Shown piece by piece: positions 1-32,356 of a DNA stretch of 34,976 bases. The DNA lies in the IMG/VR virus record IMGVR_UViG_2671180676_000009; one strand, written 5' to 3'. The first letter of the stretch is position 1; every line of letters starts with the position of its first letter. The translations under genes and the position numbers were made by a program. Below the pieces are notes generated by a model that was not told the origin of the DNA, ran no database searches, and was given only the letters and a program-made list of their open reading frames with translations. This stretch comes from a virus. Lineage: Duplodnaviria; Heunggongvirae; Uroviricota; Caudoviricetes.

Positions 1-252
1 ATGATGAACATCGAAGAACTGCGTAAAATTTTTTGTGAAGATGGCCTCTATGCTGTGTGCGTTGAAAATGGAAATCTTGTTAGTCATTACCGCATTATGT
101 GTTTGCGAAAGAATGGGGCTGCGTTAATTAATTTTGTGGATGCTCGGGTCACGGACGGATTTATCTTGCGCGAAGGTGAGTTTGTCACTTCATTACAGGC
201 ATTGAAAGAGATCGGAATAAAAGCTGGCTTTTCTGCTTTTTCAGGAGAATAA
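1..252 (+). CDS. rem: Rem-like small prophage protein (83 aa), function unknown
   Basis: 83-aa ORF starting at window position 1; matches my recollection of Qin Rem in size and position upstream of ydfU. Confidence 0.55.
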   Translation: MMNIEELRKIFCEDGLYAVCVENGNLVSHYRIMCLRKNGAALINFVDARVTDGFILREGEFVTSLQALKEIGIKAGFSAFSGE

Positions 253-318
253 ACTCATCTACAATCTTGCGCGGGGCTGAACTCCCGCTGAGTAACACCG
301 TGCCACCGGAGAAAACCG

Positions 319-597
319 ATGGCACGCAACGCAAAATATTACAATTCTGATAATTCGCCCGTTCTTGCCTGCACGCACGGGCGGTATTCTCACGCATTCA
401 AGTCTGAATGGTTCCAGCACCCTCCATGCACTGCAGAACAGGCCGAATGGCTGATTCATTCTTACCGCAGGCGCGGGTTCGAGGTTAAGAAAGCTCTCAG
501 TCTCGACTATCGGCACTGGATAATCTCTGTCAGGCTGCCTTATTCCGAACGCCCACCACGTGCGTCCCGCACTTCCCAGCAACGGATCTGGAGGTAA
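319..597 (+). CDS. Hypothetical protein (92 aa)
   Basis: ATG at 319 with GGAG 7 nt upstream; stop TAA 595-597 lies 1 nt before the GTG start of the next gene, suggesting translational coupling; no family recognised. Confidence 0.4.
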   Translation: MARNAKYYNSDNSPVLACTHGRYSHAFKSEWFQHPPCTAEQAEWLIHSYRRRGFEVKKALSLDYRHWIISVRLPYSERPPRASRTSQQRIWR

Positions 598-598
598 C

Positions 599-1648
599 GT
601 GCGGGTATTACTTAGACCTGTTCTGGTGCCTGAGCTTGGGCTGGTGGTCCTTAAGCCGGGCCGTGAATCCATACAGATATTTCATAATCCTCGAGTGCTG
701 GTGGAACCGGAACCAAAAAGCATGCGTAATCTGCCATCCGGAGTCGTTCCTGCCGTTCGCCAGCCGCTGGCGGAAGACAAAACATTGCTGCCGTTTTTTA
801 GTAACGAACGGGTGATTCGTGCTGCTGGCGGCGTTGGCGCATTGTCCGACTGGCTATTACGTCATGTTACATCCTGCCAGTGGCCTAATGGCGATTACCA
901 TCACACTGAAACAGTCATTCACCGTTATGGTACCGGCGCAATGGTGTTGTGCTGGCACTGCGACAACCAACTGCGTGACCAGACATCGGAATCACTGGAG
1001 CTGCTTGCTCAACAAAATCTGACAGCATGGGTGATTGACGTCATCCGTCACGCAATAAGCGGTACGCAGGAGCGGGAATTATCTTTGGCTGAATTATCCT
1101 GGTGGGCGGTCTGCAATCAGGTGGTGGATGCACTACCTGAGGCTGTATCGCGTCGTTCGCTGGGATTACCAGCGGAAAAAATCTGCTCGGTGTACCGCGA
1201 AAGCGACATCGTACCGGGAGAGCAGACCGCCACCAGCATATTGAAACAACGCACAAAAAATCTTGCACCGTTGCCTTACGCCCACCAGCAACAAAAATCA
1301 CCACAGGAAAAGACGGTGGTAAGCATCACCGTTGATCCAGAGTCTCCGGAATCTTTCATGAAGCTGCCTAAACGTCGCCGCTGGGTTAAGGAGAAATACA
1401 CACGTTGGGTTAAGACACAGCCGTGTGCTTGCTGCGGTATGCCAGCCGACGATCCGCATCATCTGATTGGTCACGGGCAGGGCGGAATGGGAACAAAAGC
1501 ACATGATCTCTTTGTGTTGCCTTTGTGCAGAAAGCATCACAACGAGCTGCATACGGATACAGTGGCATTTGAAGATAAGTATGGCTCCCAACTGGAGCTG
1601 ATATTTCGTTTTATCGATCGCGCGCTGACAATTGGCGTACTGGCGTAA
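599..1648 (+). CDS. ydfU: YdfU-like DUF968 protein with C-terminal Cys/His cluster (349 aa)
   Basis: GTG start at 599 preceded by GGAGG (590-594); C-terminus CACCG...DPHHLIGHG...CRKHHNELH; sits immediately upstream of Q as in Qin. Confidence 0.7.
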   Translation: MRVLLRPVLVPELGLVVLKPGRESIQIFHNPRVLVEPEPKSMRNLPSGVVPAVRQPLAEDKTLLPFFSNERVIRAAGGVGALSDWLLRHVTSCQWPNGDYHHTETVIHRYGTGAMVLCWHCDNQLRDQTSESLELLAQQNLTAWVIDVIRHAISGTQERELSLAELSWWAVCNQVVDALPEAVSRRSLGLPAEKICSVYRESDIVPGEQTATSILKQRTKNLAPLPYAHQQQKSPQEKTVVSITVDPESPESFMKLPKRRRWVKEKYTRWVKTQPCACCGMPADDPHHLIGHGQGGMGTKAHDLFVLPLCRKHHNELHTDTVAFEDKYGSQLELIFRFIDRALTIGVLA

Positions 1649-1661
1649 GTGGAGAACGAGC

Positions 1662-2414
1662 ATGAACCTTGAAGCCTTACCAAAATATTACTCCCCAAAA
1701 TCTCCAAAATTGAGCGATGACGCTCCAGCGACAGGCACCGGTTGTTTAACAATTACGGATGTAATGGCAGCGCAGGGGATGGTGCAGTCGAAAGCACCAC
1801 TTGGGTTGGCCTTATTTCTGGCAAAAGTTGGTGTTCAGGACCCTCAGTTTGCGATTGAAGGCCTGCTAAATTACGCGATGGCACTGGATAACCCGACATT
1901 GAACAAATTGAGTGAAGAAATCCGGTTACAGATTATTCCTTACCTCGTGAGTTTTGCCTTTGCTGATTACTCCAGGTCTGCGGCAAGTAAGGCTCGCTGT
2001 GAGCATTGTTCAGGTACGGGATTTTATAATGTATTGCGCGAAGTGGTGAAACACTACAGACGCGGGGAATCTGTAATCAAGGAAGAATGGGTGAAGGAAC
2101 TATGTCAGCATTGCCATGGTAAGGGCGAAGCCAGCACAGCGTGCAGAGGGTGTAAGGGTAAAGGGATTGTTCTGGATGAAAAAAGAACCCGGTTTCATGG
2201 CGTACCGGTATATAAGATTTGTGGGCGTTGTAATGGAAACCGGTTTAGTCGTTTACCGACCACGCTGGCACGACGTCATGTCCAGAAGCTGGTACCAGAC
2301 CTGACCGATTATCAGTGGTATAAGGGGTATGCGGACGTCATTGGTAAACTGGTAACAAAGTGCTGGCAGGAAGAAGCATACGCGGAAGCGCAATTGAGGA
2401 AGGTGACGAGATAA
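1662..2414 (+). CDS. quuQ: Late-gene antiterminator Q (250 aa, phage 21/82-like class)
   Basis: ATG 1662 with GGAG 7 nt upstream; four CxxCxG-type zinc-finger repeats (CEHCSGTG, CQHCHGKG, CRGCKGKG, CGRCNGNR); N-terminus MNLEALPKYY as in Qin QuuQ. Confidence 0.85.
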   Translation: MNLEALPKYYSPKSPKLSDDAPATGTGCLTITDVMAAQGMVQSKAPLGLALFLAKVGVQDPQFAIEGLLNYAMALDNPTLNKLSEEIRLQIIPYLVSFAFADYSRSAASKARCEHCSGTGFYNVLREVVKHYRRGESVIKEEWVKELCQHCHGKGEASTACRGCKGKGIVLDEKRTRFHGVPVYKICGRCNGNRFSRLPTTLARRHVQKLVPDLTDYQWYKGYADVIGKLVTKCWQEEAYAEAQLRKVTR

Positions 2415-2445
2415 ATGATTTTTGCTGAAGATGGCGACATGATGT

Positions 2446-2474
2446 TTGCATTTTTCAAAAAATATGGATAAAAT
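2446..2474 (+). promoter_or_regulatory. Putative late promoter pR'-like (TTGCAT, 17-bp spacer, TAAAAT)
   Basis: -35 TTGCAT 2446-2451 and -10 TAAAAT 2469-2474 just downstream of Q and about 45 nt upstream of an intrinsic terminator. Confidence 0.4.
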
Positions 2475-2520
2475 TTTTTCAACGATGGGCTTTGTATACC
2501 CGACGTTAAGAAAAAGTAGA

Positions 2521-2545
2521 AAACCCGCTGATGAGCGGGTTTTGT
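2521..2545. terminator. Bidirectional rho-independent terminator (candidate tR' for + strand, cspF terminator for - strand)
   Basis: Hairpin ACCCGCT-GATG-AGCGGGT flanked by an A-run upstream and a T-rich tract downstream. Confidence 0.6.
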
Positions 2546-2835
2546 GCTTTAAATGGGGCAATGGTAATGTTGAATCTCATCCCGGGACTCATGTCTGTTA
2601 ACTTATTATTTAGCTGGTGACTTGGTTATTTGCCTGATGTTTAAAATGTTTTCTTCCAGTACAATGTCCCTAAACACAATGAGTCTGCTTGTTATATTAT
2701 TAGCAGAGCTATTACGGCCAAAGTACAGCATAAGCTTTTAAAGCCAATCAACCAGTCATCAAGACAGACGGGGTTATTCATAAAAACTCTCCATGTGTGA
2801 TCCGATGGGGCCTGAAATTAAAGCTTTAATATAGC

Positions 2836-3048
2836 TCATGAAAGGTAAACATTGGCAGCTGAAGGGCCACGCAGACCATTTATCCGGCAAAATTCCACGC
2901 GTAATCCGGTGGTAATTTCTTCTGCATCGCGGAGATTGAGCGCTGAAACATGAAGCTGGACATCGATACGACCATCGGATGGGGTGATAAGACCCTTGCC
3001 GCTTTTGCCGTCAAAGGTTTTGACAATTCCTGTCATTTTACGGGACAA
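2836..3048 (-). CDS. cspF: Cold-shock protein family member CspF (70 aa)
   Basis: [26 protein letters not shown]... matches CspF/CspH branch lacking the canonical RNP aromatic motif. Confidence 0.9.
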
Positions 3049-3348
3049 AAAAATTCCTTAATACTGATAACTTGGCGCACTATACACACGTTCCTGAAGA
3101 AAGCTATAGTTTTTTGATGGGGTTGAAGATGGCTGGATGTCTAAAATAAACATTGCTTCATATGTTCAACTATGCGTTAATGATTGCGTCGGTTTGAAGA
3201 ACAGACGATATACGAAGTAGTTTACTAAAGCAGTTCTCATTTCAGGTGTTATTCACTTATTCCTTCTTTGAGTCTCTCCAATTAAGTACGAAGTCGTTTC
3301 TGTTATGCAAACCATTTATGCCGAAAGGCTCAAGTTAAGGAATGTAGA

Positions 3349-3564
3349 ATGTCAAATAAAATGACTGGTTTAGTAAAATGGTTTAACGCTGATAAAGGTT
3401 TCGGCTTTATTTCTCCTGTTGATGGTAGTAAAGATGTGTTTGTGCATTTTTCTGCGATTCAGAATGATAATTATCGAACCTTATTTGAAGGTCAAAAGGT
3501 TACCTTCTCTATAGAGAGTGGTGCTAAAGGTCCTGCAGCAGCAAATGTCATCATTACTGATTAA
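3349..3564 (+). CDS. cspB: Cold-shock protein CspB (71 aa)
   Basis: [38 protein letters not shown]...; long AT-rich leader upstream typical of cold-inducible csp genes. Confidence 0.95.
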
Positions 3565-3845
3565 AATTCATCGCTCGTCTGTATACGATAACGAAGAAGG
3601 CTGATGCCTGAGTAGAGATACGGACAGAGTAGTGAATATTGGATCTCTTTAATAAAAAGTAAGGAGGTCCAATACATGAAACAATGGCTAGCATATTTGG
3701 CAAAATCTTAATCAGGAAAAGTATGCTAACCATTGTGGTGAAGTGCAGGTTTGCTGCATGAATAGTTTTACAGCAGAAGCTAACTGCTGGCATGGCAAAA
3801 CAAAGTGCGTAAGTGGATGACTCCCACAAAAAGCACCACAATCTC

Positions 3846-3870
3846 AAACCCGCTCAGGCGGGTTTTTTAT
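3846..3870 (+). terminator. Rho-independent terminator
   Basis: Hairpin CCCGC-TCAG-GCGGG followed by TTTTTT at 3863-3868. Confidence 0.6.
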
Positions 3871-3927
3871 TATCTGCTTTAAATATATTATTAAAATATA
3901 AAAAATACTTGTTACTAATAAAATCAA

Positions 3928-4098
3928 TCAGGCTACAGCTTTAAGATTTGTCTGGAATACTTTGTTGCAATGAGGGCAGATCAAAAGGGCACCTTTTTGT
4001 ACTCTTGAAAAACTGTGTTCTGACTCTTGGGTGCAGTTTGGGCAGGAACATTTAACGAGATAATTACGGCGTGATTTTGAGTTTTTACGTTCTGACAT
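3928..4098 (-). CDS. Small C4 zinc-ribbon protein (56 aa), antisense to the late operon
   Basis: ATG at 4098 (minus) with AGGAAA 5 nt upstream; MSERKNSKSRRNYLVKCSCPNC-x18-CPHC (Cx2C...Cx2C) with basic N-terminus. Confidence 0.45.
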   Translation of the reverse strand: MSERKNSKSRRNYLVKCSCPNCTQESEHSFSRVQKGALLICPHCNKVFQTNLKAVA

Positions 4099-4317
4099 AG
4101 GCTTTTCCTGTATAAATGGCCGTATACAGTACACTAAATATGAAAACATTTCTCGTATTATTATTTTATATATGACTTTCTTTCAAAATAATTACCCACA
4201 TTTTTAATGTGTATGTTTTTTTAGCGCCGTTGAGAACAACGTGTGCTGTCAAAACTACCCCGTAGACTCCGATCTTTTCAAACATATTGCACCATCCGTG
4301 TACATCGGGGTGAGGAT

Positions 4318-4533
4318 ATGAAATCAATGGATAAGTTAACAACAGGTGTTGCCTATGGCACATCGGCGGGTAATGCTGGTTTCTGGGCATTGCAGTTACT
4401 CGATAAAGTAACTCCGTCACAGTGGGCTGCAATCGGTGTGCTGGGTAGCCTGGTTTTTGGCCTGCTGACGTATCTGACAAATCTTTATTTCAAGATTAAA
4501 GAAGACAGGCGTAAGGCTGCGAGAGGAGAGTAA
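4318..4533 (+). CDS. essQ: Holin, phage 21 S-type pinholin (71 aa) with dual-start motif MKSM
   Basis: [28 protein letters not shown]...[35 protein letters not shown]; RBS GGGGTGAGG before ATG; two TMDs. Confidence 0.9.
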
Positions 4534-4537
4534 TCCA

Positions 4538-4845
4538 ATGACTCAAGACTATGAACTGGTTGTGAAAGGAGTCCGTAATTTTGAGAATAAAGTTACGGTA
4601 ACTGTAGCCTTACAGGACAAAGAACGCTTTGACGGTGAAATTTTTGACCTGGATGTCGCCATGGACCGTGTTGAAGGAGCTGCGCTGGAGTTTTATGAGG
4701 CAGCAGCCAGAAGGAGCGTCCGGCAAGTCTTCCTGGAAGTAGCAGAAAAATTGTCAGAAAAAGTTGAGTCTTATCTGCAGCATCAGTACTCCTTTAAGAT
4801 TGAAAATCCTGCCAATAAGCACGAGCGTCCTCATCATAAATATCT

Positions 4846-4849
<4 letters not shown>
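4538..4849 (+). CDS. ydfR: YdfR-like protein (DUF1327) inserted between holin and endolysin (103 aa)
   Basis: ORF follows holin stop by 4 nt with GAGAGGAGAG RBS; matches Qin YdfR. Confidence 0.8.
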
Positions 4850-5873
<1,024 letters not shown>

Positions 5874-6234
5874 GGTAATATTAAATCGGAACATTTACAT
5901 CGCGGAATGTAAAATTTAAATAAAAAGGACTCTTCCATGAGCCAAAATTCCTGAAATCTTAAGGGTAAGATAAAAGGTCTTAATCAGAATGACACGTTTT
6001 ATTAATAAATAAAGCTATTCTTTCATTGCTGTGTTTTTCTTTACAAAAGTAATCCTTGCTATGGGTGGTTAATCATGCGTTAATGGTGTTCTGGTTTGTT
6101 ACAAATTTATCTGAAGCAGTCATTGTTATAATTTTATTATTTGTACCTCTTGAGATTTCCTTGTTGGTTTTTCTCTCTGATATTTTTTTCGGACCATTCT
6201 GCCCAAGGGCTAATTTCTTCAAAAGGTAATAATT

Positions 6235-6447
6235 ATGTCTAACAAAATGACTGGTTTAGTGAAATGGTTTAACCCTGAAAAAGGTTTTGGTTTCATCACG
6301 CCGAAAGATGGCAGCAAAGATGTGTTTGTCCATTTCTCAGCAATTCAGAGCAACGATTTCAAAACATTAACTGAGAATCAGGAAGTTGAATTTGGTATTG
6401 AGAACGGACCTAAAGGTCCTGCCGCTGTTCATGTAGTGGCGCTTTGA
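6235..6447 (+). CDS. cspI: Cold-shock protein CspI (70 aa)
   Basis: [42 protein letters not shown]...; long AT-rich 5' leader. Confidence 0.95.
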
Positions 6448-6652
6448 GGTAGACAATATTACAAACCATATTCACTTTAGATGCCCGTGTTGTCATGGTT
6501 CCCAGTATAGAACATCATCTTTTGATGTTTCTGACATGAATCCTTTCGGGGCAAAATGTATCTTTTGTAAATCAATGATGATTACATTTGATAATATTTC
6601 ACAATACTTAAATGCCAGCCGTCTGTCGTTGGATTTAAAAAAGTGAAAATGA

Positions 6653-6675
6653 AGGCTCCTTCGGGAGCTTTTTTG
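6653..6675 (+). terminator. Rho-independent terminator
   Basis: Hairpin GGCTCC-TTCG-GGAGCT followed by TTTTTT. Confidence 0.6.
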
Positions 6676-6718
6676 CTTGGTGTCTATTCGATGGATACTC
6701 ACATACTACGGTAACATC

Positions 6719-6949
6719 ATGAAAAAAATCATAGTTTTTTTTAACTCTGAACCAGCAGTGGTAGTGCCAGCGATGACTGGAGTTAACACCATCATGCGTG
6801 AATATCCAAATGGCGAAAAAACACACCTTACTGTAATGGCCGCAGGGTTTCCATCTCTGACCGGAGATCATAAAGTCATTTATGTAGCCGCGGATCGACA
6901 TGTTACTTCAGAAGAAATTCTGGAAGCAGCAATAAGGCTCTTGAGTTGA
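6719..6949 (+). CDS. Hypothetical small protein in the cold-shock locus (76 aa from MKKIIV; possibly ynfN/ymcE-like)
   Basis: ORF in the position occupied by ynfN in K-12 Qin (between cspI and gnsB); start chosen at first ATG after the terminator; weak RBS. Confidence 0.4.
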   Translation: MKKIIVFFNSEPAVVVPAMTGVNTIMREYPNGEKTHLTVMAAGFPSLTGDHKVIYVAADRHVTSEEILEAAIRLLS

Positions 6950-7120
6950 TTTGATGCTATTGCATTGATAATTCAGGAAAATTCTCTTTGTCTGCTTGTG
7001 TAAAATTTAGACTATCGTATGTTGATTATTGCGATGTTTCATCTTATCTTTTACACGTTTGCACCATATAATCGACTTACTGTGTAACTGGAAAGTCATA
7101 ACAGACTAAAAGAGGAAATG

Positions 7121-7294
7121 ATGAATATTGAAAACTTAAAAACAAAAGCAGAAGCAGATATTTCTGAATATATAACAAAAAAAATTATTGAACTTAAGAA
7201 AAAGACCGGGAAAGAAGTTACCAGTATTCAGTTTACCGCACGGGAAAAAATGACGGGTCTTGAAAGCTATGATGTCAAGATTAATTTAATCTGA
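7121..7294 (+). CDS. gnsB: GnsA/GnsB-family small protein (57 aa)
   Basis: MNIENLKTKAEADISEYITKKIIELKKKTGKEVTSIQFTAREKMTGLESYDVKINLI; GAGG 6 nt upstream; below the 60-aa cutoff of the ORF track. Confidence 0.7.
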   Translation: MNIENLKTKAEADISEYITKKIIELKKKTGKEVTSIQFTAREKMTGLESYDVKINLI

Positions 7295-7445
7295 TGTATT
7301 CAATAATAAAATTTATCCATAAACCTCGTTTTTACGGGGTTTTGTTATATTTGAATGGTTCCGAATATCTAAATCACAATTGTTGATGGTTTTTATTAAA
7401 CCAATGCAGTCCGGCTCAGGAGTGAGAGAAGCCGGACGTTATGGT

Positions 7446-7856
7446 TTAGCGTGGTAAGATCTGTGTAGTTTTCTGGATGCTTTCAGTAAATAGTAATGAA
7501 TTATCAAAGGTATAGTAATATCTTTTTTGTTCGTGGATATTTGTAACCCACCGAAAAACTCCTGCTTTAGCAAGGTTTCTTCTGTATTCCTGAAATGTGA
7601 TCTCTCTGGATTTCAGCTTATTAGAGGTCGTTTCTATAAGATGCCTATCCTTTGAAAATTTGACAGACACAATGTTTTTTAGGCCCTTTAATAACACTGT
7701 ATTATCATTTTTTAATACAATATGAACATTCTCTGTGGCTAAATAGTAAATGTAATGTGAGACATTGTGACGTTTTAGCTCAGAATAAAACCATTGATAG
7801 TTTAAATCGTTTCGAACTTTATCAAATATTTGTTTAAAAATGACTACCTGATCCAT
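7446..7856 (-). CDS. ydfO: YdfO-like DUF1398 protein (136 aa)
   Basis: [40 protein letters not shown]...; GGAAGG 7 nt upstream of ATG at 7856. Confidence 0.8.
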
Positions 7857-7913
7857 AGATAAACCTTCCATGTGATATGAGGGGGCGTAGTCTGCACGAT
7901 TATCTAAATTGCT

Positions 7914-8147
7914 TCAATCTGGTCTGACCTGTTTTCTGAGCAATTCAGTAATGTCACTCTTTTCTTTGTTTGCTTCAGAAGAAACTCTTTTTTCTGAGCA
8001 CAGTCTCCGGCGGCAGGCTTCAATGACCCAGGCTGAGAAATTCCCGGACCCTTTTTGCTCAAGAGCGATGTTAATTTGTTCAATCATTTGGTTAGGAAAG
8101 CGGATGTTGCGGGTTGTTGTTCTGCGGGTTCTGTTCTTCGTTGACAT
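7914..8147 (-). CDS. ynfO: Arc/Mnt-like ribbon-helix-helix protein (77 aa), homologue of the rightmost lambda ORF
   Basis: N-terminal basic tail then IRFPNQMIEQINIALEQKGS-GNFSAWVIEACRRRL (beta-strand/helix/helix pattern as in Arc); lies immediately beside cos. Confidence 0.7.
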   Translation of the reverse strand: MSTKNRTRRTTTRNIRFPNQMIEQINIALEQKGSGNFSAWVIEACRRRLCSEKRVSSEANKEKSDITELLRKQVRPD

Positions 8148-8346
8148 GAGGTTGCCCCGTATTCAGTGTCGCTGATTTGTATTGTCTGAAGTTGTTTTTA
8201 CGTTAAGTTGATGCAGATCAATTAATACGATACCTGCGTCATAATTGATTATTTGACGTGGTTTGATGGCCTCCACGCACGTTGTGATATGTAGATGATA
8301 ATCATTATCACTTTACGGGTCCTTTCCGGTGATCCGACAGGTTACG

Positions 8347-8358
8347 GGGCGGCGACCT
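8347..8358 (+). other. cos: cosN cohesive-end sequence GGGCGGCGACCT (12-nt lambda-type 5' overhang)
   Basis: Exact lambda left-end sequence GGGCGGCGACCTCGCGGGTTTTCGCTATTTATG preceded by the lambda right-end sequence ...CCGACAGGTTACG. Confidence 0.9.
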
Positions 8359-8530
8359 CGCGGGTTTTCGCTATTTATGAAAATTTTCCGGTTTAAGGTG
8401 TTTCCGTTCTTCTTCGTCGTAACTTAATGTTTTTATTTAAAATACCCCCTGAAAAGAAAGGAAACGACAGGTGCTGAAAACGAGCTTTTGGGCCTCTGTC
8501 GTTTCCTATCTCTGTTTTTGTCCGTGGAAT
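8359..8530 (+). promoter_or_regulatory. cosB: terminase small-subunit binding repeats R3, R2, R1 between cosN and Nu1
   Basis: CGTTTCC-type repeats at about 8399-8416 (R3), 8457-8471 (R2, inverted) and 8496-8512 (R1), as in lambda. Confidence 0.75.
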
Positions 8531-8535
8531 GAACA

Positions 8536-9055
8536 ATGGAAGTCAACAAAAAGCAGCTGGCTGACATTTTCGGTGCGAGTATCCGTACCATTCAGAACTG
8601 GCAGGAACAGGGAATGCCCGTTCTGCGAGGTGGTGGCAAGGGTAATGAGGTGCTTTATGACTCTGCCGCCGTTATAAGATGGTATGCCGAAAGGGATGCT
8701 GAAATTGAGAACGAAAAGCTGCGCCGGGAAGTTGAAGAACTGCGGCAGGCCAGCGAGACAGATCTCCAGCCAGGGACTATTGAGTACGAACGCCATCGAC
8801 TTACGCGTGCGCAGGCCGACGCACAGGAGCTGAAAAATGCCAGAGACTCCGCTGAAGTGGTGGAAACCGCATTCTGTACTTTCGTGCTGTCGCGGATCGC
8901 AGGTGAAATTGCCAGTATTCTCGACGGGATCCCCCTGTCGGTGCAGCGGCGTTTTCCGGAACTGGAAAACCGACATGTTGATTTCCTGAAACGGGATATC
9001 ATCAAAGCCATGAACAAAGCAGCCGCGCTGGATGAACTGATACCGGGGTTGCTGA

Positions 9056-9081
<26 letters not shown>
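8536..9081 (+). CDS. nu1: Terminase small subunit Nu1 (181 aa)
   Basis: MEVNKKQLADIFGASIRTIQNWQEQGMPVLRGGGKGNEVLYD... near-identical to lambda Nu1. Confidence 0.95.
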
Positions 9082-12762
<3,681 letters not shown>

Positions 12763-12782
<20 letters not shown>

Positions 12783-22475: not shown

Positions 22476-23219
22476 ATGACACAGGCAGAATCAGCGATTC
22501 TGGCGCACGCCCGGCGATGTGCGCCAGCGGAGTCGTGCGGCTTCGTGGTGAGAACGCCGGAAGGGGAAAGATATTTTCCCTGCGTGAATATCTCCGGTGA
22601 GCCGGAGGCGTATTTCCGGATGTCGCCGGAGGACTGGCTGCGGGCAGAGATGCAGGGTGAGATTGTGGCGCTGGTCCACAGCCACCCCGGTGGTCTGCCC
22701 TGGCTGAGTGAGGCTGACCGGCGGCTGCAGGTGCAGAGTGATTTGCCGTGGTGGCTGGTCTGCCGGGGGACGATTCATAAGTTCCGCTGTGTGCCGCATC
22801 TCACCGGGCGGCGCTTTGAACACGGGGTGACGGACTGTTACACGCTGTTCCGGGATGCTTATCATCTGGCGGGGATTGAGATGCCGGATTTTCATCGCGA
22901 GGATGACTGGTGGCGTCACGGTCAGAATCTCTATCTGGATAATCTGGAGGCCACAGGGCTGTATCAGGTGCCGTTGTCATCAGCACAACCGGGCGATGTG
23001 CTGCTGTGCTGTTTTGGTTCATCGGTGCCGAATCATGCCGCCATTTACTGTGGTGATGGCGAGCTGCTGCACCATATTCCTGAACAACTGAGCAAACGAG
23101 AGAGGTATACCGACAAATGGCAGCGACGCACACACTCCCTCTGGCGTCACCGGGCATGGCGCGCATCTGCCTTTACGGGGATTTACAACGATTTGGCCGC
23201 CGCATCGACCTTCGTGTGA
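22476..23219 (+). CDS. K: Tail tip assembly protein K with JAMM/MPN-type and NlpC/P60-type motifs (247 aa from first ATG; 199 aa if started at the internal ATG at 22620)
   Basis: HSHPGGLPWLSEAD (HxHx7Sx2D) and downstream DCYTLF...H motifs; overlaps I by about 100 nt. Confidence 0.85.
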   Translation: MTQAESAILAHARRCAPAESCGFVVRTPEGERYFPCVNISGEPEAYFRMSPEDWLRAEMQGEIVALVHSHPGGLPWLSEADRRLQVQSDLPWWLVCRGTIHKFRCVPHLTGRRFEHGVTDCYTLFRDAYHLAGIEMPDFHREDDWWRHGQNLYLDNLEATGLYQVPLSSAQPGDVLLCCFGSSVPNHAAIYCGDGELLHHIPEQLSKRERYTDKWQRRTHSLWRHRAWRASAFTGIYNDLAAASTFV

Positions 23220-23788
23220 AAACGGGGGCTGAAGCCATTCGGGCGCTGGCCACACAGCTCCCGGCGTTTCGTCAGAAACTGAGCGACGGCTGGTATCAGG
23301 TACGGATTGCCGGGCAGGATGTCAGCACGTCCGGATTAACGGCGCAGTTACATGAGACTCTGCCTGATGGCGCTGTGATTCATATTGTTCCCAGAGTCGC
23401 CGGGGCCAAGTCAGGTGGCGTATTCCAGATTGTCCTGGGGGCTGCCGCCATTGCCGGATCATTCTTTACCGCCGGGGCCACCCTTGCAGCATGGGGGGCA
23501 GCCATTGGGGCCGGTGGTATGACCGGCATCCTGTTTTCTCTCGGTGCCAGTATGGTGCTCGGTGGTGTGGCGCAGATGCTGGCACCGAAAGCCAGAACTC
23601 CCCGTACACAGACAACGGATAACGGCAAACAGAACACCTATTTCTCCTCACTGGATAACATGGTTGCCCAGGGCAATGTTCTGCCGGTTCTGTACGGTGA
23701 AATGCGCGTGGGGTCGCGGGTGGTCTCTCAGGAGATCAGCACGGCAGACGAAGGGGATGGTGGTCAGGTTGTGGTGATTGGTCGCTGA
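23117..23788 (+). CDS. I: Tail tip assembly protein I (223 aa)
   Basis: 223-aa ORF overlapping the K 3' end, as lambda gpI. Confidence 0.9.
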   Translation: MAATHTLPLASPGMARICLYGDLQRFGRRIDLRVKTGAEAIRALATQLPAFRQKLSDGWYQVRIAGQDVSTSGLTAQLHETLPDGAVIHIVPRVAGAKSGGVFQIVLGAAAIAGSFFTAGATLAAWGAAIGAGGMTGILFSLGASMVLGGVAQMLAPKARTPRTQTTDNGKQNTYFSSLDNMVAQGNVLPVLYGEMRVGSRVVSQEISTADEGDGGQVVVIGR

Positions 23789-23847
23789 TGAAAAACGTTT
23801 ATGTGAAACCGCCTCCGGGCGGTTTTGTCGTTTATGGAGCGTGAGGA

Positions 23848-26800
23848 ATGGGTAAAGGCAGCAGTAAGGGGCATACTCCGCGCGAAGCGAAGGACAACCT
23901 GAAGTCCACGCAGCTGCTGAGTGTGATCGATGCCATCAGCGAAGGGCCGGTTGAAGGTCCGGTGGATGGATTAAAAAGCGTGCTGCTGAACAGTACGCCA
24001 GTGCTGGACAGTGAGGGGAATACCAATATCTCCGGCGTCACGGTGGTGTTCCGGGCCGGTGAGCAGGAGCAGACACCGCCGGAGGGATTTGAATCCTCCG
24101 GCTCCGAGACGGTGCTGGGTACGGAAGTGAAATACGACACGCCGATCACCCGGACCATCACGTCGGCAAACATTGACCGACTGCGCTTTACCTTCGGTGT
24201 GCAGGCACTGGTGGAAACCACCTCAAAGGGGGACCGGAATCCGTCGGAAGTCCGCCTGCTGGTTCAGATACAGCGTAATGGTGGCTGGGTGACGGAAAAA
24301 GACATCACCATTAAAGGCAAAACCACCTCGCAGTATCTGGCCTCGGTGGTGGTGGATAACCTGCCGCCGCGCCCGTTTAATATCCGGATGCGCAGGATGA
24401 CGCCGGACAGCACCACAGACCAGTTGCAGAACAAAACGCTCTGGTCGTCATACACCGAAATCATCGATGTGAAACAGTGCTACCCGAACACGGCACTGGT
24501 CGGCGTACAGGTGGACTCGGAGCAGTTCGGTAGCCAGCAGGTGAGTCGTAATTATCATCTTCGCGGGCGCATTCTGCAGGTGCCGTCGAACTATAACCCG
24601 CAGACGCGACAATACAGCGGTATCTGGGACGGAACGTTAAAACCAGCATATAGCAACAACATGGCCTGGTGTCTGTGGAATATGCTGACCCATCCGCGCT
24701 ACGGCATGGGGAAACGTCTTGGTGCGGCGGATGTGGATAAATGGGCGCTGTATGTCATCGGCCAGTACTGCGACCAGTCGGTGCCGGACGGCTTTGGCGG
24801 CACGGAGCCGCGCATTACCTGTAATGCGTACCTGACCACACAGCGTAAGGCGTGGGATGTGCTCAGTGATTTCTGCTCGGCGATGCGCTGTATGCCGGTA
24901 TGGAACGGGCAGACGCTGACGTTCGTGCAGGACCGACCGTCGGATAAGGTGTGGACCTATAACCGCAGTAATGTGGTGATGCCGGATGATGGCGCGCCGT
25001 TCCGCTACAGCTTCAGCGCCCTGAAGGACCGCCATAATGCCGTTGAGGTGAACTGGATTGACCCGAACAACGGCTGGGAGACGGCGACAGAGCTTGTTGA
25101 AGATACGCAGGCCATTGCCTGTTACGGTCGTAATGTTATGAAGATGGATGCCTTTGGCTGTACCAGCCGGGGGCAGGCACACCGCGCCGGGCTGTGGCTG
25201 ATTAAAACGGAACTGCTGGAAACGCAGACCGTGGATTTCAGCGTGGGCGCAGAAGGACTTCGCCATGTGCCGGGCGATGTTATTGAAATCTGCGATGATG
25301 ACTATGCCGGTATCAGCACCGGCGGTCGCGTGCTGGCGGTGAACAGCCAGACCCGGACTCTGACGCTCGACCGTGAAATCACGCTGCCATCCTCCGGCAC
25401 CACGCTGATAAGCCTGGTTGACGGGCAGGGGAATCCGGTGAGCGTGGAGGTCCAGTCCGTCACTGACGGCGTGAAGGTGAAAGTGAGCCGTGTTCCTGAC
25501 GGCGTTGCCGAATACAGCGTGTGGGGACTGAAGCTGCCGACGCTGCGCCAGCGCCTGTTCCGCTGCGTGAGTATCCGTGAGAACGACGACGGCACGTATG
25601 CCATCACCGCCGTGCAGCATGTACCTGAAAAAGAGGCCATCGTGGATAACGGGGCGCACTTTGACGGCGACCAGAGCGGCACGGTGAATGGTGTCACGCC
25701 GCCAGCGGTGCAGCACCTGACCGCCGAAGTCACCGCAGACAGCGGGGAATATCAGGTGCTGGCGCGCTGGGACACGCCGAAGGTGGTGAAGGGCGTGAGC
25801 TTCCTGCTCCGTCTGACCGTAACAGCGGATGACGGCAGTGAGCGGCTGGTCAGCACGGCCCGGACGACGGAAACCACATACCGCTTCACGCAGCTGGCGC
25901 TGGGGAACTACAGGCTGACAGTCCGGGCGGTAAATGCGTGGGGGCAGCAGGGCGATCCGGCGTCGGTATCGTTCCGGATTGCCGCACCGGCAGCGCCGTC
26001 ACAGATTGAGCTGACGCCGGGCTATTTTCAGATAACCGCCACGCCGCATCTTGCGGTTTATGACCCGACGGTACAGTTTGAGTTCTGGTTCTCGGAAAAG
26101 CGGATTACCGATATCAGGCAGGTTGAAACCACAGCACGCTATCTTGGCACGGCGCTGTACTGGATAGCCGCCAGTATCAATATCAAACCGGGCCATGATT
26201 ATTACTTTTATATCCGCAGTGTGAACACCGTTGGCAAATCGGCATTCGTGGAGGCTGTTGGTCAGCCGAGTGATGATGCATCCGGTTATCTGGATTTTTT
26301 CAAAGGCGAGATAGGGAAAACCCATCTGGCTCAGGAGCTGTGGACGCAGATTGATAACGGTCAGCTTGCGCCTGACCTGGCTGAAATCAGGACGTCCATT
26401 ACGGATGTCAGCAATGAAATCACGCAGACCGTCAATAAGAAACTGGAAGACCAGAGTGCGGCAATTCAGCAGATACAGAAGGTTCAGGTTGATACAAATA
26501 ATAACCTGAACAGCATGTGGGCTGTGAAGCTGCAGCAGATGCAGGACGGACGCCTTTATATCGCGGGTATTGGTGCCGGTATTGAGAACACCCCTGACGG
26601 CATGCAGAGTCAGGTGCTGCTGGCGGCGGACAGGATTGCGATGGTTAATCCTGCGAATGGCAACACAAAACCGATGTTTGTTGGTCAGGGCGATCAGATA
26701 TTCATGAACGACGTGTTCCTGAAACGCCTGACGGCCCCCACCATTACCAGCGGTGGAAATCCACCGGCATTTTCCCTGACTCCGGACGGAAAGCTGACCG

Positions 26801-27345
26801 CTAAAAATGCGGATATCAGTGGCAGTGTGAATGCGAACGCCGGGACGCTCAACAATGTCACGGTAAATGAAAACTGTACGATTAAGGGCATGCTGGAGGC
26901 GACTCAGGTCAGAGGTGACTTCGTTAAAGCTGTATCCAAATCATTTCCGAAACAGGCTGGTACGTGGGGTAACACGGAAACACCAAACGGGACGGTTACA
27001 GTCACCATAAGCGATGATCATAACTTTGACCGTCAAATCATTATTCCGCCCATTATCTTTAACGGAATAGCGTATAGCGATCCGGGAAGTGGTAATAACC
27101 CGGGAGGTACAAGATACACGGGTTATGGTTTTGAAGTTCGCAAAAACGGTGTATTAATCGCATCCAGAGAAACTAAAGGGGCTATTCCCGGTAGCTACAG
27201 TGCGGTTATTGATATGCCGAGTGGCAGGGGAAGCGTCACTCTGGAGTTTAAGGTTTTCCATAAAGGCAATCAGTGGGCAGGTAATATCACCGACTGTACG
27301 GTGATTGTGACCAAAAAAGCGGCTTCAGGCATCAGTATTCGTTGA
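23848..27345 (+). CDS. J: Tail tip / host-specificity protein J (1165 aa)
   Basis: [41 protein letters not shown]...; lambda-like over most of its length but with a different, longer C-terminal segment. Confidence 0.9.
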
Positions 27346-27415: not shown

Positions 27416-28015
27416 ATGCGTAAAGTTTGTGCAGCCATTTTGTCCGCAGCCATTTGTCTGGCCGTATCCGGTGCGCCTGCATGGGCGTCTGAACATCAGT
27501 CCACGCTGAGCGCGGGGTATCTTCATGCCCGGACCAACGTTCCCGGCAGTGATGATCTGAACGGGATTAACGTGAAATACCGTTATGAGTTTACGGATAC
27601 GCTGGGGATGGTGACGTCATTCAGCTATGCAGGAGACAAGAATCGCCAGCTTACCCGTTACAGCGATACCCGCTGGCATGAAGATTCCGTGCGTAACCGC
27701 TGGTTCAGCGTGATGGCGGGGCCGTCTGTGCGCGTGAATGAATGGTTCAGTGCGTATGCGATGGCGGGCGTGGCTTACAGCCGTGTGTCGACTTTTTCCG
27801 GGGATTATCTCCGCGTAACTGACAACAAGGGGAAAACGCACGACGTGCTGACCGGAAGTGATGACGGTCGCCACAGCAACACGTCTCTGGCGTGGGGAGC
27901 TGGCGTGCAGTTTAACCCGACCGAATCCGTGGTTATTGATGTCGCTTATGAAGGTTCCGGCAGTGGTGACTGGCGCACTGACGGTTTCATCGTGGGTGTC
28001 GGTTATAAATTCTGA
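27416..28015 (+). CDS. lom: Lom outer-membrane protein (Ail/Lom family beta-barrel, 199 aa)
   Basis: Signal peptide [24 protein letters not shown]; C-terminal ...GVGYKF; AGAGG RBS. Confidence 0.9.
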
Positions 28016-28079: not shown

Positions 28080-31000
28080 ATGGCAGTACGGATTTCAGGT
28101 GTACTGAAAGATGGCGCAGGTAAGCCGATACAAAACTGCACCATTCAGCTAAAGGCCAGGCGCAACAGCACCACGGTGGTGGTGAACACAGTGGCCTCAG
28201 AAAACCCGGATGAAGCCGGGCGTTACACAATGGACGTCGAGTATGGTCAGTACAGCGTCAGTCTGTTGGTGGAAGGATTCCCGCCGTCACATGCCGGGAC
28301 CATCACCGTGTATGAAGATTCCCGACCCGGTACGCTGAATGATTTTCTCGGTGCCATGACGGAGGATGATGCCCGTCCGGAGGCTCTGCGCCGTTTTGAA
28401 CTGATGGTGGAAGAGGTGGCGCGTAACGCGTCCGCGGTGGCACAGAACACGGCAGCCGCGAAGAAGTCAGCCAGTGATGCCGGCACATCTGCCAGTGAGG
28501 CGGCAACCCATGCGACTGATGCTGCAGGCTCAGCGCGTGCAGCCAGCACGTCAGCCGGACAGGCCGCGACGTCGGCTCAGGAGGCGTCTTCCAGCGCAGG
28601 AACGGCATCAACAAAGGCCACTGAAGCATCAAAAAGTGCTGCCGCTGCAGAGTCCTCAAAAAGCGCGGCGGCCACCAGTGCCGGTGCCGCGAAAACGTCA
28701 GAAACGAATGCTGCAGCGTCACAAAAATCAGCAGCCACTTCTGCATCCACTGCGACGACGAAAGCGTCAGAAGCCGCCACTTCAGCCCGGGATGCGGCGG
28801 CCTCCAAAGAGGCGGCAAAATCATCAGAAACGAACGCCTCCACAAGCGCCAGCAGTGCAGCCTCCTCGGCAACGGCGGCAGGAAATTCCGTGAAGGCGGC
28901 AAAAACGTCCGAGACGAATGCTAAGTCTTCTGAAACGGCAGCGGAACAGAGCGCCTCAGCTGCGGCAGACTCTGAGACAACAGCTGCATCATCGGCCCGT
29001 GAGGCGTCCATTAAGGCAGAGGAGGCAGCAGTCAGTGCCACCGCCGCCGGAAAATCGGCAGAAAGCGCCGCATCATCCGCTTCAACAGCCACAACGAAGG
29101 CTGGCGAAGCCACTGAACAGGCCAGCGCAGCAGCGAGGTCTGCTTCCGCAGCGAAGACATCCGAAACGAACGCGAAAGCGTCGGAAACCAGCGCAGAATC
29201 CTCAAAAACGGCTGCCGCATCGTCCGCCAGTTCGGCGGCGTCATCGGCATCATCGGCGTCTGCTTCAAAAGATGAGGCGACCAGACAGGCGTCAGCAGCG
29301 AGGGGCAGCGCCACGACGGCATCCACGAAGGCGACAGAGGCTGCTGGCAGTGCGGCAGCGGCAGCACAGAGCAAAACGGGCAGAGGATATTGCATCCGCC
29401 GTGGCGCTTGAGGATGCGAGCACGACGAAAAAGGGGATAGTACAGCTCAGTAGTGCGACTAACAGCACTTCCGAGTCACTGGCGGCAACACCAAAAGCCG
29501 TTAAGGCCGCGTATGACCTGGCTAACGGGAAATACACCGCACAGGATGCAACGACAGCACAGAAAGGGATAATCCAGCTAAGCAGCGCGACCAACAGCAC
29601 GTCTGAAACGCTTGCCGCGACACCAAAGGCAGTAAAAGCAGAAACGTCTGCAGAAAGATCAGAACGGTGCGGATATCCCTGGCAAAGATACCTTTACGAA
29701 AAATATTGGTGCCTGCCGTGCCTTCGGTGGGTCAGTAAGCACAACAACAGGAAACTGGACGACTGCACAGTTTATCGAGTGGCTGGATTCTCAGGGAGCA
29801 TTTAACCATCCATACTGGATGTGCAAGGGTTCCTGGTCTTATGGCAATAATAAAATCATTACTGATACTGACTGCGGTAATATTCATCTCGCCGGAGCTG
29901 TCATTGAAGTAATGGGGATAAAGTCAGCGATGACGATCCGCATTACCACACCGACCACCTCCACTGGTGGTGGAACAACTAACGCCCAGTTTACCTATAT
30001 TAATCACGGAACAGATTATTCACCTGGCTGGCGAAGGGACTATAACTCCAGAAATAAGCCAACGGCATCAGAGATCGGGGCGTTACCGTCAGGTGGAACA
30101 GCAGTATCATCAGTTAATCTGGCTTCAAAAGGTCGGGTAACCGCGCTGACAGACAATACGCAGGGGGCAGCAGGTCTTGAGTTATACGAGGTGTATAACA
30201 ACGGATATCCAACAGCGTATGGAAATATCATTCACCTGAAAGGGATGACAGCCGTTGGCGAAGGTGAGTTACTCATCGGCTGGAGTGGTACAAGCGGTGC
30301 TCATGCTCCGGCATTTATTCGTTCACGACGGGATACGACCGACGCAAACTGGTCGCCGTGGGCGCAGCTTTACACCTCGGCTCATCCTCCTGCAGAGTTT
30401 TATCCAGTCGGTGCACCAATCCCGTGGCCATCAGATACCGTTCCGTCTGGCTATGCCCTGATGCAGGGGCAGACTTTTGACAAATCTGCATACCCGAAAC
30501 TTGCAGTTGCTTATCCGTCAGGCGTGATCCCTGATATGCGTGGCTGGATGATTAAGGGCAAGCCCGCCAGTGGTCGGGCCGTATTATCTCAGGAACAGGA
30601 CGGCATTAAATCGCACACCCACAGCGCCAGCGCATCCAGTACGGATTTGGGGACGAAAACCACATCGTCGTTTGATTACGGAACCAAATCCACGAATAAC
30701 ACCGGGGCGCATACCCATAGTATTAGCGGGACCGCAAATAGTGCCGGTGCGCACCAACACAAGAGTTCCGGTGCATTTGGTGGCACGAACACGAGCATTT
30801 TCCCTAATGGTTATACCGCGATTTCAAATCTAAGCGCGGGGATTATGAGCACAACAAGCGGTAGTGGCCAGACTCGTAATGCAGGGAAGACATCATCAGA
30901 TGGTGCTCATACCCACTCGCTGTCCGGCACTGCTGCAAGCGCAGGCGCACATGCACATACTGTCGGTATTGGTGCTCATACGCACTCCGTTGCGATTGGT

Positions 31001-31093
31001 TCACATGGACACACCATCACCGTTAACGCTGCTGGTAACGCGGAAAACACCGTCAAAAACATCGCATTTAACTATATTGTGAGGCTTGCATAA
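28080..31093 (+). pseudogene. stf: Side tail fibre gene stf split across three reading frames (junctions near 29373-29376 and 29654-29656)
   Basis: Frame 0 (28080-29411) has the Stf N-terminus and A/S/T-rich repeat; frame 1 has AKRAEDIASAVALEDASTTKKGIVQLSSATNSTSE...ATPKAVKA; frame 2 continues to the His-rich Stf C-terminus ...[14 protein letters not shown]. Confidence 0.75.
28430..29370 (+). repeat. Low-complexity Ala/Ser/Thr-rich repetitive segment of Stf with recurring KTSETNA-type units
   Basis: About 310 codons dominated by A, S, T, K, E with repeated AAKTSETNA / AKSSETNA motifs; yields long spurious ORFs in other frames and on the opposite strand. Confidence 0.7.
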
Positions 31094-31668
31094 TGGCATT
31101 CAGAATGAGTGAACAACCACGGACCATAAAAATTTATAATCTGCTGGCCGGAACTAATGAATTTATTGGTGAAGGTGATGCATATATTCCGCCTCATACA
31201 GGTCTGCCAGCAAACAGTACCGATATTGCACCGCCAGATATTCCGGCTGGCTTCGTGGCTGTTTTCAACAGTGATGAGTCATCGTGGCATCTCGTTGAAG
31301 ATCATCGGGGTAAAACTGTTTATGACGTGGCTTCCGGCGACGCGTTATTTATTTCTGAACTCGGTCCGTTACCGGAAAATGTTACCTGGTTATCGCCGGA
31401 AGGGGAGTTTCAGAAGTGGAACGGCACAGCCTGGGTGAAGGATACGGAAGCAGAAAAACTGTTCCGGATCCGGGAGGCGGAAGAAACAAAAAACAACCTG
31501 ATGCAGGTAGCCAGTGAGCATATTGCGCCGCTTCAGGATGCTGCAGATCTGGAAATTGCAACGGAGGAAGAAATCTCGTTGCTGGAAGCATGGAAAAAGT
31601 ATCGGGTATTGCTGAACCGTGTTGATACGTCAACTGCACAGGATATTGAATGGCCAGCACTGCCGTAG
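31093..31668 (+). CDS. tfa: Tail fibre assembly chaperone Tfa (191 aa)
   Basis: ATG overlaps stf stop (TAATG); [48 protein letters not shown]... as Tfa proteins. Confidence 0.9.
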
Positions 31669-31765
31669 GGTAAAACATATAAATTCTATAATTAGATGTA
31701 TCTTTCCATTTACGGCAAGGAAGGGGGCTTGGAAGACGTAAAGCATCTCACACCGAGATTATTTT

Positions 31766-32356
31766 TTATATGTCAGGTGTCTGAAGTTTTGCTTTGGCTC
31801 TTAAAATGGTTTGCCGCGAGGTTTTGAATTCCCGGGCAATGGCACTTATACTTACACCTGACTTAATTCGTTCGAATACCGCCTGTTTCTGTTCTTCATT
31901 TAACACAGGTGGTCGACCAAAACGTTTCCCTGCGCCGCGGGCTCTTACTATCCCGGAATGAGTGCGTTCAAGTAAAAGGTCTCGTTCAAATTCAGCGACT
32001 GCTGAAATTACTTGCATCATCATTTTTCCTGTTGGACTGGTCAGGTCAATGCCCCCCAATGCTAAGCAATGCACTCTGATACCTGTTTCGGTCAGTTGTT
32101 CCACTGTTTTCCTGATATCCATTGCATTACAACCAAGGCGATCCAGTTTTGTCACAATCAATTGATCACCACATTTCAGGCGAGCAAGCAACCGGTTAAA
32201 ACCAGGACGCTCACTGGTTGCTGCTGAGCCGCTAATGTGTTCTTCGATTATTTGCTGAGGTTTGATTTTAAAACCTGCACTTTCGATTTCCCGGCGTTGA
32301 TTTTCGGTGGTCTGATCCAGCGTTGATATCCGACAGTAAGCAAAAATTTGAGACAT
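31766..32356 (-). CDS. pin: Serine recombinase, Pin/Gin/Hin-family DNA invertase (196 aa)
   Basis: [20 protein letters not shown]... with catalytic Ser in CRIST, resolvase core and C-terminal HTH; convergent with tfa. Confidence 0.9.

What the first reader, a model, noticed from the sequence alone, without database searches (positions are those of the whole stretch)
8280..8530. Intact lambda-type cos (cosQ/cosN/cosB) inside the prophage
The junction ...CCGACAGGTTACG | GGGCGGCGACCT | CGCGGGTTTTCGC... reproduces the lambda right-end/left-end join, with the 12-nt cohesive end at 8347-8358 and R3/R2/R1-like repeats before Nu1. Any DNA carrying this site can be packaged by a lambda-type terminase supplied in trans, even if this prophage's own head genes are defective.
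Basis: partly seen in the sequence, partly recalled or inferred. Interest (0 to 1): 0.45.

Follow-up and report, generated by a model that had tools for sequence, protein, structure and literature searches.

The report
Ordinary lambda cos in Qin-type prophage
This is the normal DNA-packaging site (cos) of a lambda-like prophage, nearly identical to that of phage lambda and present in most E. coli genomes, so it is real but ordinary.

Summary
Window 8347-8358 is the exact lambda 12-nt cohesive-end sequence. Window 8011-8398 is identical, base for base, to the joined lambda right and left ends, which covers cosQ, cosN and I2. cosB keeps the lambda order R3-I1-R2(inverted)-R1 with unchanged cosN-cosB spacing, ahead of an intact Nu1/A terminase.

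cosB differs from reference lambda at 7 positions. Six occur in plaque-forming phages (434, 2H10, PhiR34_1 and others). The seventh, T163A in the accessory R1 site, is rare.

The element is a full-length version of the Qin prophage at ydfJ. E. coli K-12 Qin equals this prophage minus window 9065-30137. The same cos occurs in 4612 of 5426 complete E. coli genomes.

A +1 frameshift in head gene C and a fragmented stf gene suggest a defective prophage. The frameshift could also be a sequencing error.

A lambda-specificity helper terminase can initiate at a lone chromosomal cos. Productive packaging also needs a second cos about 38-51 kb downstream, and there is none in the remaining 26.6 kb of the window. 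The documented outcomes are stalled, tailless particles and cos-stimulated recombination.

Already known; low interest.

The parts
8290..8527 (+). [quoted passage not shown]
   Evidence: Alignment to lambda. Extent of the insert taken from PMC4856287.
8317..8323 (+). cosQ, GGGTCCT, the packaging-termination element
   Evidence: Identical to lambda 48473-48479. The lambda coordinates of cosQ are from my own knowledge. The whole surrounding stretch is identical to lambda in any case.
8347..8358 (+). cosN: the 12-nt cohesive-end sequence GGGCGGCGACCT. With its symmetric 2-bp flanks it spans 8345-8360.
   Evidence: Single exact match in the window, identical to lambda bp 1-12.
8364..8396 (+). I2 segment (lambda bp 18-50) between cosN and cosB
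   Evidence: Identical to lambda. Extent from PMC4856287.
8396..8411 (+). cosB R3 (lambda bp 50-65), AGGTGTTTCCGTTCTT. It carries C53T (window 8399), outside the bp 55-63 TerS contact segment.
   Evidence: R3 limits and contact bases from PMC9026076 and the phage 434 record annotation. The same T is present in phages 434 and 2H10.
8420..8432 (+). cosB I1, the IHF site (lambda bp 74-86), unchanged. A73G (window 8419) lies one base outside it.
8454..8469 (-). cosB R2 (lambda bp 108-123), inverted, identical to lambda
8496..8511 (+). cosB R1 (lambda bp 151-166), CTGTCGTTTCCTATCT, carrying T163A at window 8508
   Evidence: The variant was absent from IMG/VR contigs, whereas wild-type R1 was found in at least 120.
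8536..9081 (+). Nu1 (TerS, annotated nohA in E. coli), 181 aa, 98% identical to lambda. Residues 1-47, which include the recognition helix 17-24 and the wing 31-39, are identical.
   Evidence: Domain limits from PMC9026076.
9056..10981 (+). A (TerL), 641 aa, 99.5% identical to lambda gpA
12763..14083 (+). Head protease/scaffold gene C with a +1 frameshift (extra C at 12970, CC to CCC). The frame-1 product stops after 141 codons. The internal Nu3 frame is intact.
   Evidence: No E. coli complete genome in the collection shares the extra base.

Best explanation
This is the ordinary joined cos site of a lambda-like prophage of the Qin type, integrated in ydfJ. In the integrated or circular form the two virion ends are contiguous, so cosQ-cosN-cosB sits in the middle of the prophage, between the lysis genes and Nu1.

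Inferred mechanism, taken from lambda:
- TerS (Nu1) dimers bind R3 and R2 across an IHF-induced bend at I1, with R1 as an accessory site.
- This anchors TerL (gpA), which nicks cosN 12 bp apart.
- The terminase-DNA complex docks on a prohead and DNA is translocated rightward, from Nu1 towards J.
- cosQ+cosN of the next cos terminate packaging.

The site has lambda packaging specificity. On its own in the chromosome it can serve only as an initiation site. It gives productive particles only after excision and concatemer formation, or if a second cos lies about 38-51 kb downstream.

Shown here: sequence identity, subsite order and spacing, and intact cognate terminase genes. Inferred: that the site is actually cut and packaged.
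For: - Window 8011-8398 is identical to lambda 48167-48502/1-52, and there are only 7 differences in cosB.
- Six of those 7 are present in isolated, plaque-forming phages, including 434. Phage 434 shares lambda's packaging specificity (PMC4669245).
- There is no indel between cosN and R2, so the critical cosN-cosB spacing is kept.
- R3 contact bases 55-63 and the genetically defined bp 56/58/59 are unchanged (PMC9026076).
- Nu1 residues 1-47 are identical to lambda, and A is 99.5% identical and full length.
- Window 8347-26344 matches lambda 1-18002 at 97.2%.
- The neighbouring genes match the Qin prophage, and K-12 Qin aligns as a deletion derivative lacking window 9065-30137.
- The same cos is found in 4612 of 5426 complete E. 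coli genomes.
Against: - No experiment was done. Cutting and packaging are inferred from sequence.
- T163A in R1 was not seen in any phage record aligned, nor in IMG/VR. The combination C53T in R3 plus T163A in R1 is untested.
- Gene C is frameshifted, so the prophage may not use its own cos productively.
- The left part of the prophage (int, xis, replication genes) lies outside the window, so the ability to excise and replicate is unknown.
Confidence: 0.9

Rival explanations
1. Relic site in a decaying prophage. The prophage can no longer build heads, so cos has no function for it. It acts only as a decoy or recombination hotspot when a lambda-specificity phage grows in the cell. The helper terminase cuts it, which starts abortive packaging of prophage plus host DNA and stimulates recombination that can move Qin genes into the helper.
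For: - Gene C has a +1 frameshift and stf is split across three frames.
- K-12 Qin shows that this lineage decays while keeping cos at about 99% identity.
- Abortive packaging from a prophage cos is described in PMC4669245, section 18.
- Recombination junctions between lambda and the defective prophage DLP12 cluster at cos (PMC3945230).
Against: - The C frameshift is a single extra base in a CC run and is unique among 3161 genomes carrying this segment, so it may be a sequencing error.
- stf is dispensable: the lambda reference also has it split.
- All other head, tail and terminase genes are full length at 87-100% identity.
- This rival concerns the current use of the site, not what the site is. 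It is compatible with the main explanation.
Confidence: 0.45
2. Functionally weakened cos. The substitutions in R3 (C53T) and R1 (T163A), together with the spacer changes, reduce TerS binding, so packaging from this site is poor or strictly IHF-dependent.
For: - C53T changes a base that is C in all three lambda R sequences, and T163A falls in R1 at the position that corresponds to R3 bp 61-62, inside the contact segment.
- T163A is rare: 0 IMG/VR contigs carry it against at least 120 with the wild-type sequence.
Against: - C53T is present in viable phages 434 and 2H10.
- bp 53 lies outside the NMR-defined contacts 55-63 and outside the genetically defined bp 56, 58 and 59 (PMC9026076).
- R1 plays only a non-essential, accessory role (PMC4669245).
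- R2, I1 and the spacing are unchanged.
Confidence: 0.1
3. The cos belongs to a phage-inducible chromosomal island or another satellite that hijacks helper terminase, rather than to a phage.
For: Gram-negative PICIs carry lambda-like cosN and cosQ sites (PMC9026076).
Against: - PICI cosB sequences are completely different from the phage cosB and are followed by rpp (PMC9026076).
- Here cosB is lambda's own and is followed by Nu1, A and a complete lambda-type head and tail module.
Confidence: 0.01

Closest known systems
cos of bacteriophage lambda (NC_001416; cosQ-cosN-I2-R3-I1-R2-R1)
   Same: cosQ, cosN, I2, I1 and R2 are identical. The order, orientation and cosN-cosB spacing are identical. 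The cognate Nu1 DNA-binding domain is identical.
   Different: There are seven cosB differences: C53T (R3), A73G, T102C, G134A, deletion of G138, T145G, and T163A (R1). Upstream of lambda bp 48141 the sequence is Qin-type, not lambda.
cos/nohA region of the E. coli K-12 Qin cryptic prophage (and the cos/nohD region of DLP12)
   Same: Same chromosomal element and same flanking genes: rzpQ, cspI, gnsB, ydfO, ynfO on one side of cos-nohA, and tfaQ, pinQ, ydfK, ydfJ' on the far side. Window 5150-9064 is 99.8% identical and window 30138-32725 is also 99.8% identical.
   Different: K-12 Qin lacks window 9065-30137 (A through most of stf). The window's cosB differs from K-12 Qin's at C53T, A73G and T163A.
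cos of phage 434 (OL657226, subsites annotated by the depositors)
   Same: Shares 5 of the 7 departures from lambda, including C53T in R3. Same subsite layout. Phage 434 shares lambda's packaging specificity (PMC4669245).
   Different: 434 has additional changes (bp 23, 99, 139, 151, 176) and lacks T163A.
Full-length Qin-type prophages of E. coli W, cM8a and similar strains
   Same: Window 1-24000 aligns end to end at 98.6-98.7% with the same gene order.
   Different: Those prophages have an intact S49 peptidase gene (gene C) and a single 1024-aa stf gene. The window has a frameshifted C and a split stf.

Membership tests
lambda-type cos with complex cosB | 12-nt 5' cohesive-end sequence (cosN) with lambda identity and symmetric 2-bp flanks | tested here: met
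   8345-8360 is CGGGGCGGCGACCTCG, identical to lambda.
lambda-type cos with complex cosB | Conserved 7-bp cosQ upstream of cosN | tested here: met
   GGGTCCT at 8317-8323. The whole stretch 8011-8346 is identical to the lambda right end.
lambda-type cos with complex cosB | cosB with subsites R3-I1-R2-R1 in that order, with R2 inverted | tested here: met
   R3 8396-8411 (+), I1 8420-8432, R2 8454-8469 (-), R1 8496-8511 (+).
lambda-type cos with complex cosB | Exact cosN-to-cosB spacing; deleting as few as 3 bp causes a severe packaging defect (PMC9026076) | tested here: met
   No indel between lambda bp 1 and 137. The single 1-bp deletion lies between R2 and R1 and is shared by all nine other prophage and phage sequences aligned.
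lambda-type cos with complex cosB | R3 bases contacted by TerS (bp 55-63; genetically defined bp 56, 58, 59) match lambda specificity | tested here: met
   bp 54-72 are identical to lambda. The only R3 change is bp 53 (PMC9026076).
lambda-type cos with complex cosB | Cognate TerS gene directly downstream, with the lambda recognition helix and wing | tested here: met
   Nu1 starts at 8536. Residues 1-47 are identical to lambda Nu1.
lambda-type cos with complex cosB | Site is nicked by terminase and supports packaging | not testable with these tools
   Needs in vitro cos cleavage or a cosmid or helper packaging assay.
Qin-type lambdoid prophage at ydfJ | Gene order rem-ydfU-ydfT(Q)-cspF-cspB-essD-ydfR-rrrQ-rzpQ-cspI-gnsB-ydfO-ynfO-cos-nohA ... 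tfaQ-pinQ-ydfK-ydfJ' | tested here: met
   98.7% end-to-end match to the annotated cM8a prophage, and 99.8% to both flanks of K-12 Qin.
PICI cos (Rpp-dependent) | cosB unrelated to the phage cosB, followed by an rpp gene instead of terS | tested here: not met
   cosB is lambda's own and is followed by Nu1 and A.

The most novel reading that the evidence does not exclude
The rare R1 variant (T163A) combined with C53T in R3 might define a subtly altered cosB. Alternatively, in some host genomes this chromosomal cos might pair with a second cos in the same orientation 38-51 kb downstream. A lambda-specificity helper could then package and transduce the right arm of the prophage together with the ydfJ-side host genes, as a natural 'passive prophage' substrate. 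Nothing in the window supports either reading, and both rest on known mechanisms.
Probability: 0.03. Interest if true: 0.35.

Novelty: already known. Interest (0 to 1): 0.08.

Why it matters
It matters little beyond annotation. The site marks the boundary between the late/lysis and morphogenesis modules of a Qin-type prophage. It tells us the element has lambda packaging specificity. It also shows that this copy is a fuller version of the K-12 Qin remnant.

A chromosomal cos can act as a decoy that wastes a superinfecting lambda-type phage's proheads. It can also be a double-strand-break hotspot that promotes recombination between phage and prophage. Both effects are already described in the literature (PMC4669245, PMC3945230).

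Tried and rejected
1. Chance match: rejected. A 388-bp stretch is identical to lambda and the megablast E-value is 0.

3. Loss of R sites: all three are present, and only R3 and R1 carry one change each.

4. Phage 21-type or N15-type specificity: rejected, because the R sites and the Nu1 recognition helix are lambda's.

5. PICI cos: rejected, because Nu1 and A follow rather than rpp.

6. A second cosN in the window that could terminate packaging: none within one mismatch.

7. An identical cosB elsewhere: none found. The best match among 5426 E. coli genomes is 188/189 (CUPF06) and the best phage match is 98.4%.

8. The gene C frameshift in other genomes, to separate mutation from sequencing error: it is unique to the window, so this is unresolved.

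9. Rfam scan of the window: nothing at cos.

10. The source genome was not identified. No complete E. coli genome matches better than 98.7% over 24 kb.

11. The /data folder for scripts lagged behind fetched loci, so the multi-phage alignment was made with DNA alignment instead.

Full report
**Observation**

GGGCGGCGACCT occurs once in the window, at 8347-8358, with no second copy even allowing one mismatch.

I fetched lambda NC_001416, joined its right and left ends, and aligned them globally to window 7947-8746.
- Window 8011-8398 is identical, base for base, to lambda 48167-48502 followed by lambda 1-52.
- That stretch contains cosQ (GGGTCCT, 8317-8323), cosN with its symmetric 2-bp flanks (8345-8360), and the I2 segment (lambda bp 18-50).
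- Homology to the lambda right end begins at about window 7985.

**cosB anatomy**

I took subsite limits from two sources:
- Murialdo & Feiss 2022 (PMC9026076): R3 is bp 50-65, TerS contacts bp 55-63, and the genetically defined bases are bp 56, 58 and 59.
- The depositor-annotated phage 434 record: R3 50-65, I1 74-86, R2 108-123 inverted, R1 151-166.

| Subsite | Window coordinates | Strand |
|---|---|---|
| R3 | 8396-8411 | + |
| I1 | 8420-8432 | + |
| R2 | 8454-8469 | inverted |
| R1 | 8496-8511 | + |
| Nu1 ATG | 8536 | + |

Relative to reference lambda, cosB has seven differences.

| Lambda position | Change | Window position | Location |
|---|---|---|---|
| 53 | C to T | 8399 | inside R3, outside contact segment 55-63 |
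| 73 | A to G | 8419 | one base outside I1 |
| 102 | T to C | 8448 | I1-R2 spacer |
| 134 | G to A | 8480 | R2-R1 spacer |
| 138 | G deleted | after 8483 | R2-R1 spacer |
| 145 | T to G | 8490 | R2-R1 spacer |
| 163 | T to A | 8508 | inside R1 |

No indel lies between cosN and R2, so the spacing that is critical for nicking is preserved.

**Do the differences matter?**

I aligned the window's left-end region with lambda, K-12 Qin, two other E. coli prophages, and six isolated phages: 434, 2H10, PhiR34_1, PhiR42_1, Kati and Turner.
- Six of the seven differences occur in one or more of these plaque-forming phages.
- C53T is present in 434 and 2H10. Phage 434 shares lambda's packaging specificity (PMC4669245).
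- The 1-bp deletion is shared by every sequence aligned except reference lambda.
- Only T163A in R1 is absent from the phages. Among the aligned sequences it is shared only with a prophage of E. coli CUPF06.

An exact-match scan of IMG/VR found no contig with the variant R1 context. The wild-type context gave at least 120 contigs. R1 is described as playing a non-essential, accessory role (PMC4669245).

The cognate proteins are intact.
- Nu1 is 181 aa with only three substitutions: K48R, A75T and L132I. Residues 1-47 are identical to lambda, including the recognition helix 17-24 and the wing 31-39.
- gpA is 641 aa and 99.5% identical.

I therefore judge the site very probably functional with lambda specificity. 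This is inference from sequence; nothing was tested biochemically.

**Context**

Window 8347-26344 aligns with lambda 1-18002 at 97.2%. Every lambda head and tail protein from Nu1 to I is full length at 87-100% identity, with one exception.

The exception is gene C.
- An extra C at window 12970 (CC to CCC) shifts the frame after codon 70.
- The frame-1 product then stops after 141 codons.
- The in-frame Nu3 coding part is unaffected.
- None of the 3161 complete E. coli genomes carrying this segment has the extra base. It is either a private mutation or a sequencing error.

The side tail fibre gene stf is split over three frames relative to the 1024-aa gene of strain cM8a. stf is also split in reference lambda.

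Upstream of cos the sequence is not lambda.
- It matches the Qin prophage late region: rem, ydfU, ydfT (Q antiterminator), cspF, cspB, essD, ydfR, rrrQ, rzpQ, cspI, gnsB, ydfO, ynfO.
- The window ends in the interrupted host gene ydfJ (33693-34976).
- K-12 Qin aligns to window 5150-9064 and window 30138-32725 at 99.8%. K-12 Qin is therefore this prophage minus window 9065-30137.
- The left arm of the prophage (int, xis, replication genes) is outside the window.

**How common is it?**

The 501-bp cos region matches 94 phage records. It matches 4612 of 5426 complete E. coli genomes, with a median of two copies per genome and up to nine. A joined cos in the middle of a lambdoid prophage is the expected textbook arrangement.

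The mechanism below comes from the lambda literature (PMC4669245, PMC9026076, PMC4856287).
- This positions TerL to nick cosN.
- The terminase-cosB end complex docks on a prohead, and DNA is translocated rightward.
- Termination needs cosQ+cosN of a downstream cos.

A lone chromosomal cos is therefore an initiation site only. Feiss et al. state the consequence explicitly. A lytically growing phage of the same specificity will initiate at a prophage cos and encapsidate prophage plus adjacent bacterial DNA. The motor then stalls when the head is full, which gives a tailless, non-infectious particle. A 2026 paper states that cos phages do not engage in lateral transduction (PMC12829572).

From 8347 rightward there are 25.3 kb to ydfJ. 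By inference, a lambda headful would therefore include roughly 23-26 kb of host DNA.

A helper would package this locus productively only in one of three situations:
- the prophage excises and forms concatemers;
- the prophage is tandemly duplicated;
- another cos lies 38-51 kb downstream in the same orientation.

A documented consequence of cos in defective prophages is stimulated recombination with infecting lambda. For DLP12, half of the sequenced junctions lie next to cos, and the recombinants that took up DLP12 nu1 are viable (PMC3945230).

**Comparison, novelty and verdict**

The site passes every sequence-level membership test for a lambda-type complex cos. It fails the test for a PICI-type cos, because cosB is lambda's own and is followed by Nu1 and A rather than rpp.

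It is a known feature, the Qin/nohA cos, in a known prophage family. The only particulars are one rare base change in the accessory R1 site and a possibly inactivating frameshift in head gene C.

Novelty: already known. Interest: low.

Noticed in passing
window 12763-14083 (extra C at 12970): Head protease/scaffold gene C carries a +1 frameshift (CC to CCC). The product would be truncated to 141 codons. The extra base is absent from all 3161 complete E. coli genomes with this segment, so it is either a private inactivating mutation or a sequencing error.
   Followed up: yes
window 28080-31093: The side tail fibre gene stf is split over three reading frames (28080-29375, 29347-29640, 29639-31090) relative to the intact 1024-aa gene of E. 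coli cM8a. One cause is a 17-bp deletion at about 29639. A second discontinuity of about 43 bp lies near 29366-29376.
   Followed up: partly
window 9065-30137: E. coli K-12 Qin matches both sides of this interval at 99.8% and lacks the interval itself. The window therefore shows what the roughly 21-kb deletion in the K-12 cryptic prophage removed: A through most of stf.
   Followed up: yes
window 8508: The R1 variant T163A (CTGTCGTTTCCTATCT) appears rare. No exact matches were found in IMG/VR against at least 120 for the wild type. It is shared with a prophage in E. coli CUPF06.
   Followed up: partly
window 3188-3580 and 6090-6474 (+): Two Rfam cspA thermoregulator 5' leaders (RF01766) lie ahead of the prophage-borne cold-shock genes cspB and cspI.
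   Followed up: no
window 31436-31634 (+): Rfam IS009 RNA family hit (RF02111, 220.9 bits) lying inside the tail fibre assembly gene tfaQ.
   Followed up: no
window 23848-27345 and 27416-28015: The tail tip protein J is only 82% identical to lambda J (90% to cM8a J) and diverges in its C-terminal, receptor-binding part. The Lom homologue is 46% identical to lambda Lom. The host-range module therefore differs from lambda although the rest of the tail is 98-100% identical.
   Followed up: no
window 7914-8147 (-): The ynfO ORF (YlcI/YnfO family) runs across the left boundary of homology with the lambda right end (about window 7985). Lambda has no annotated gene at the matching position.
   Followed up: no
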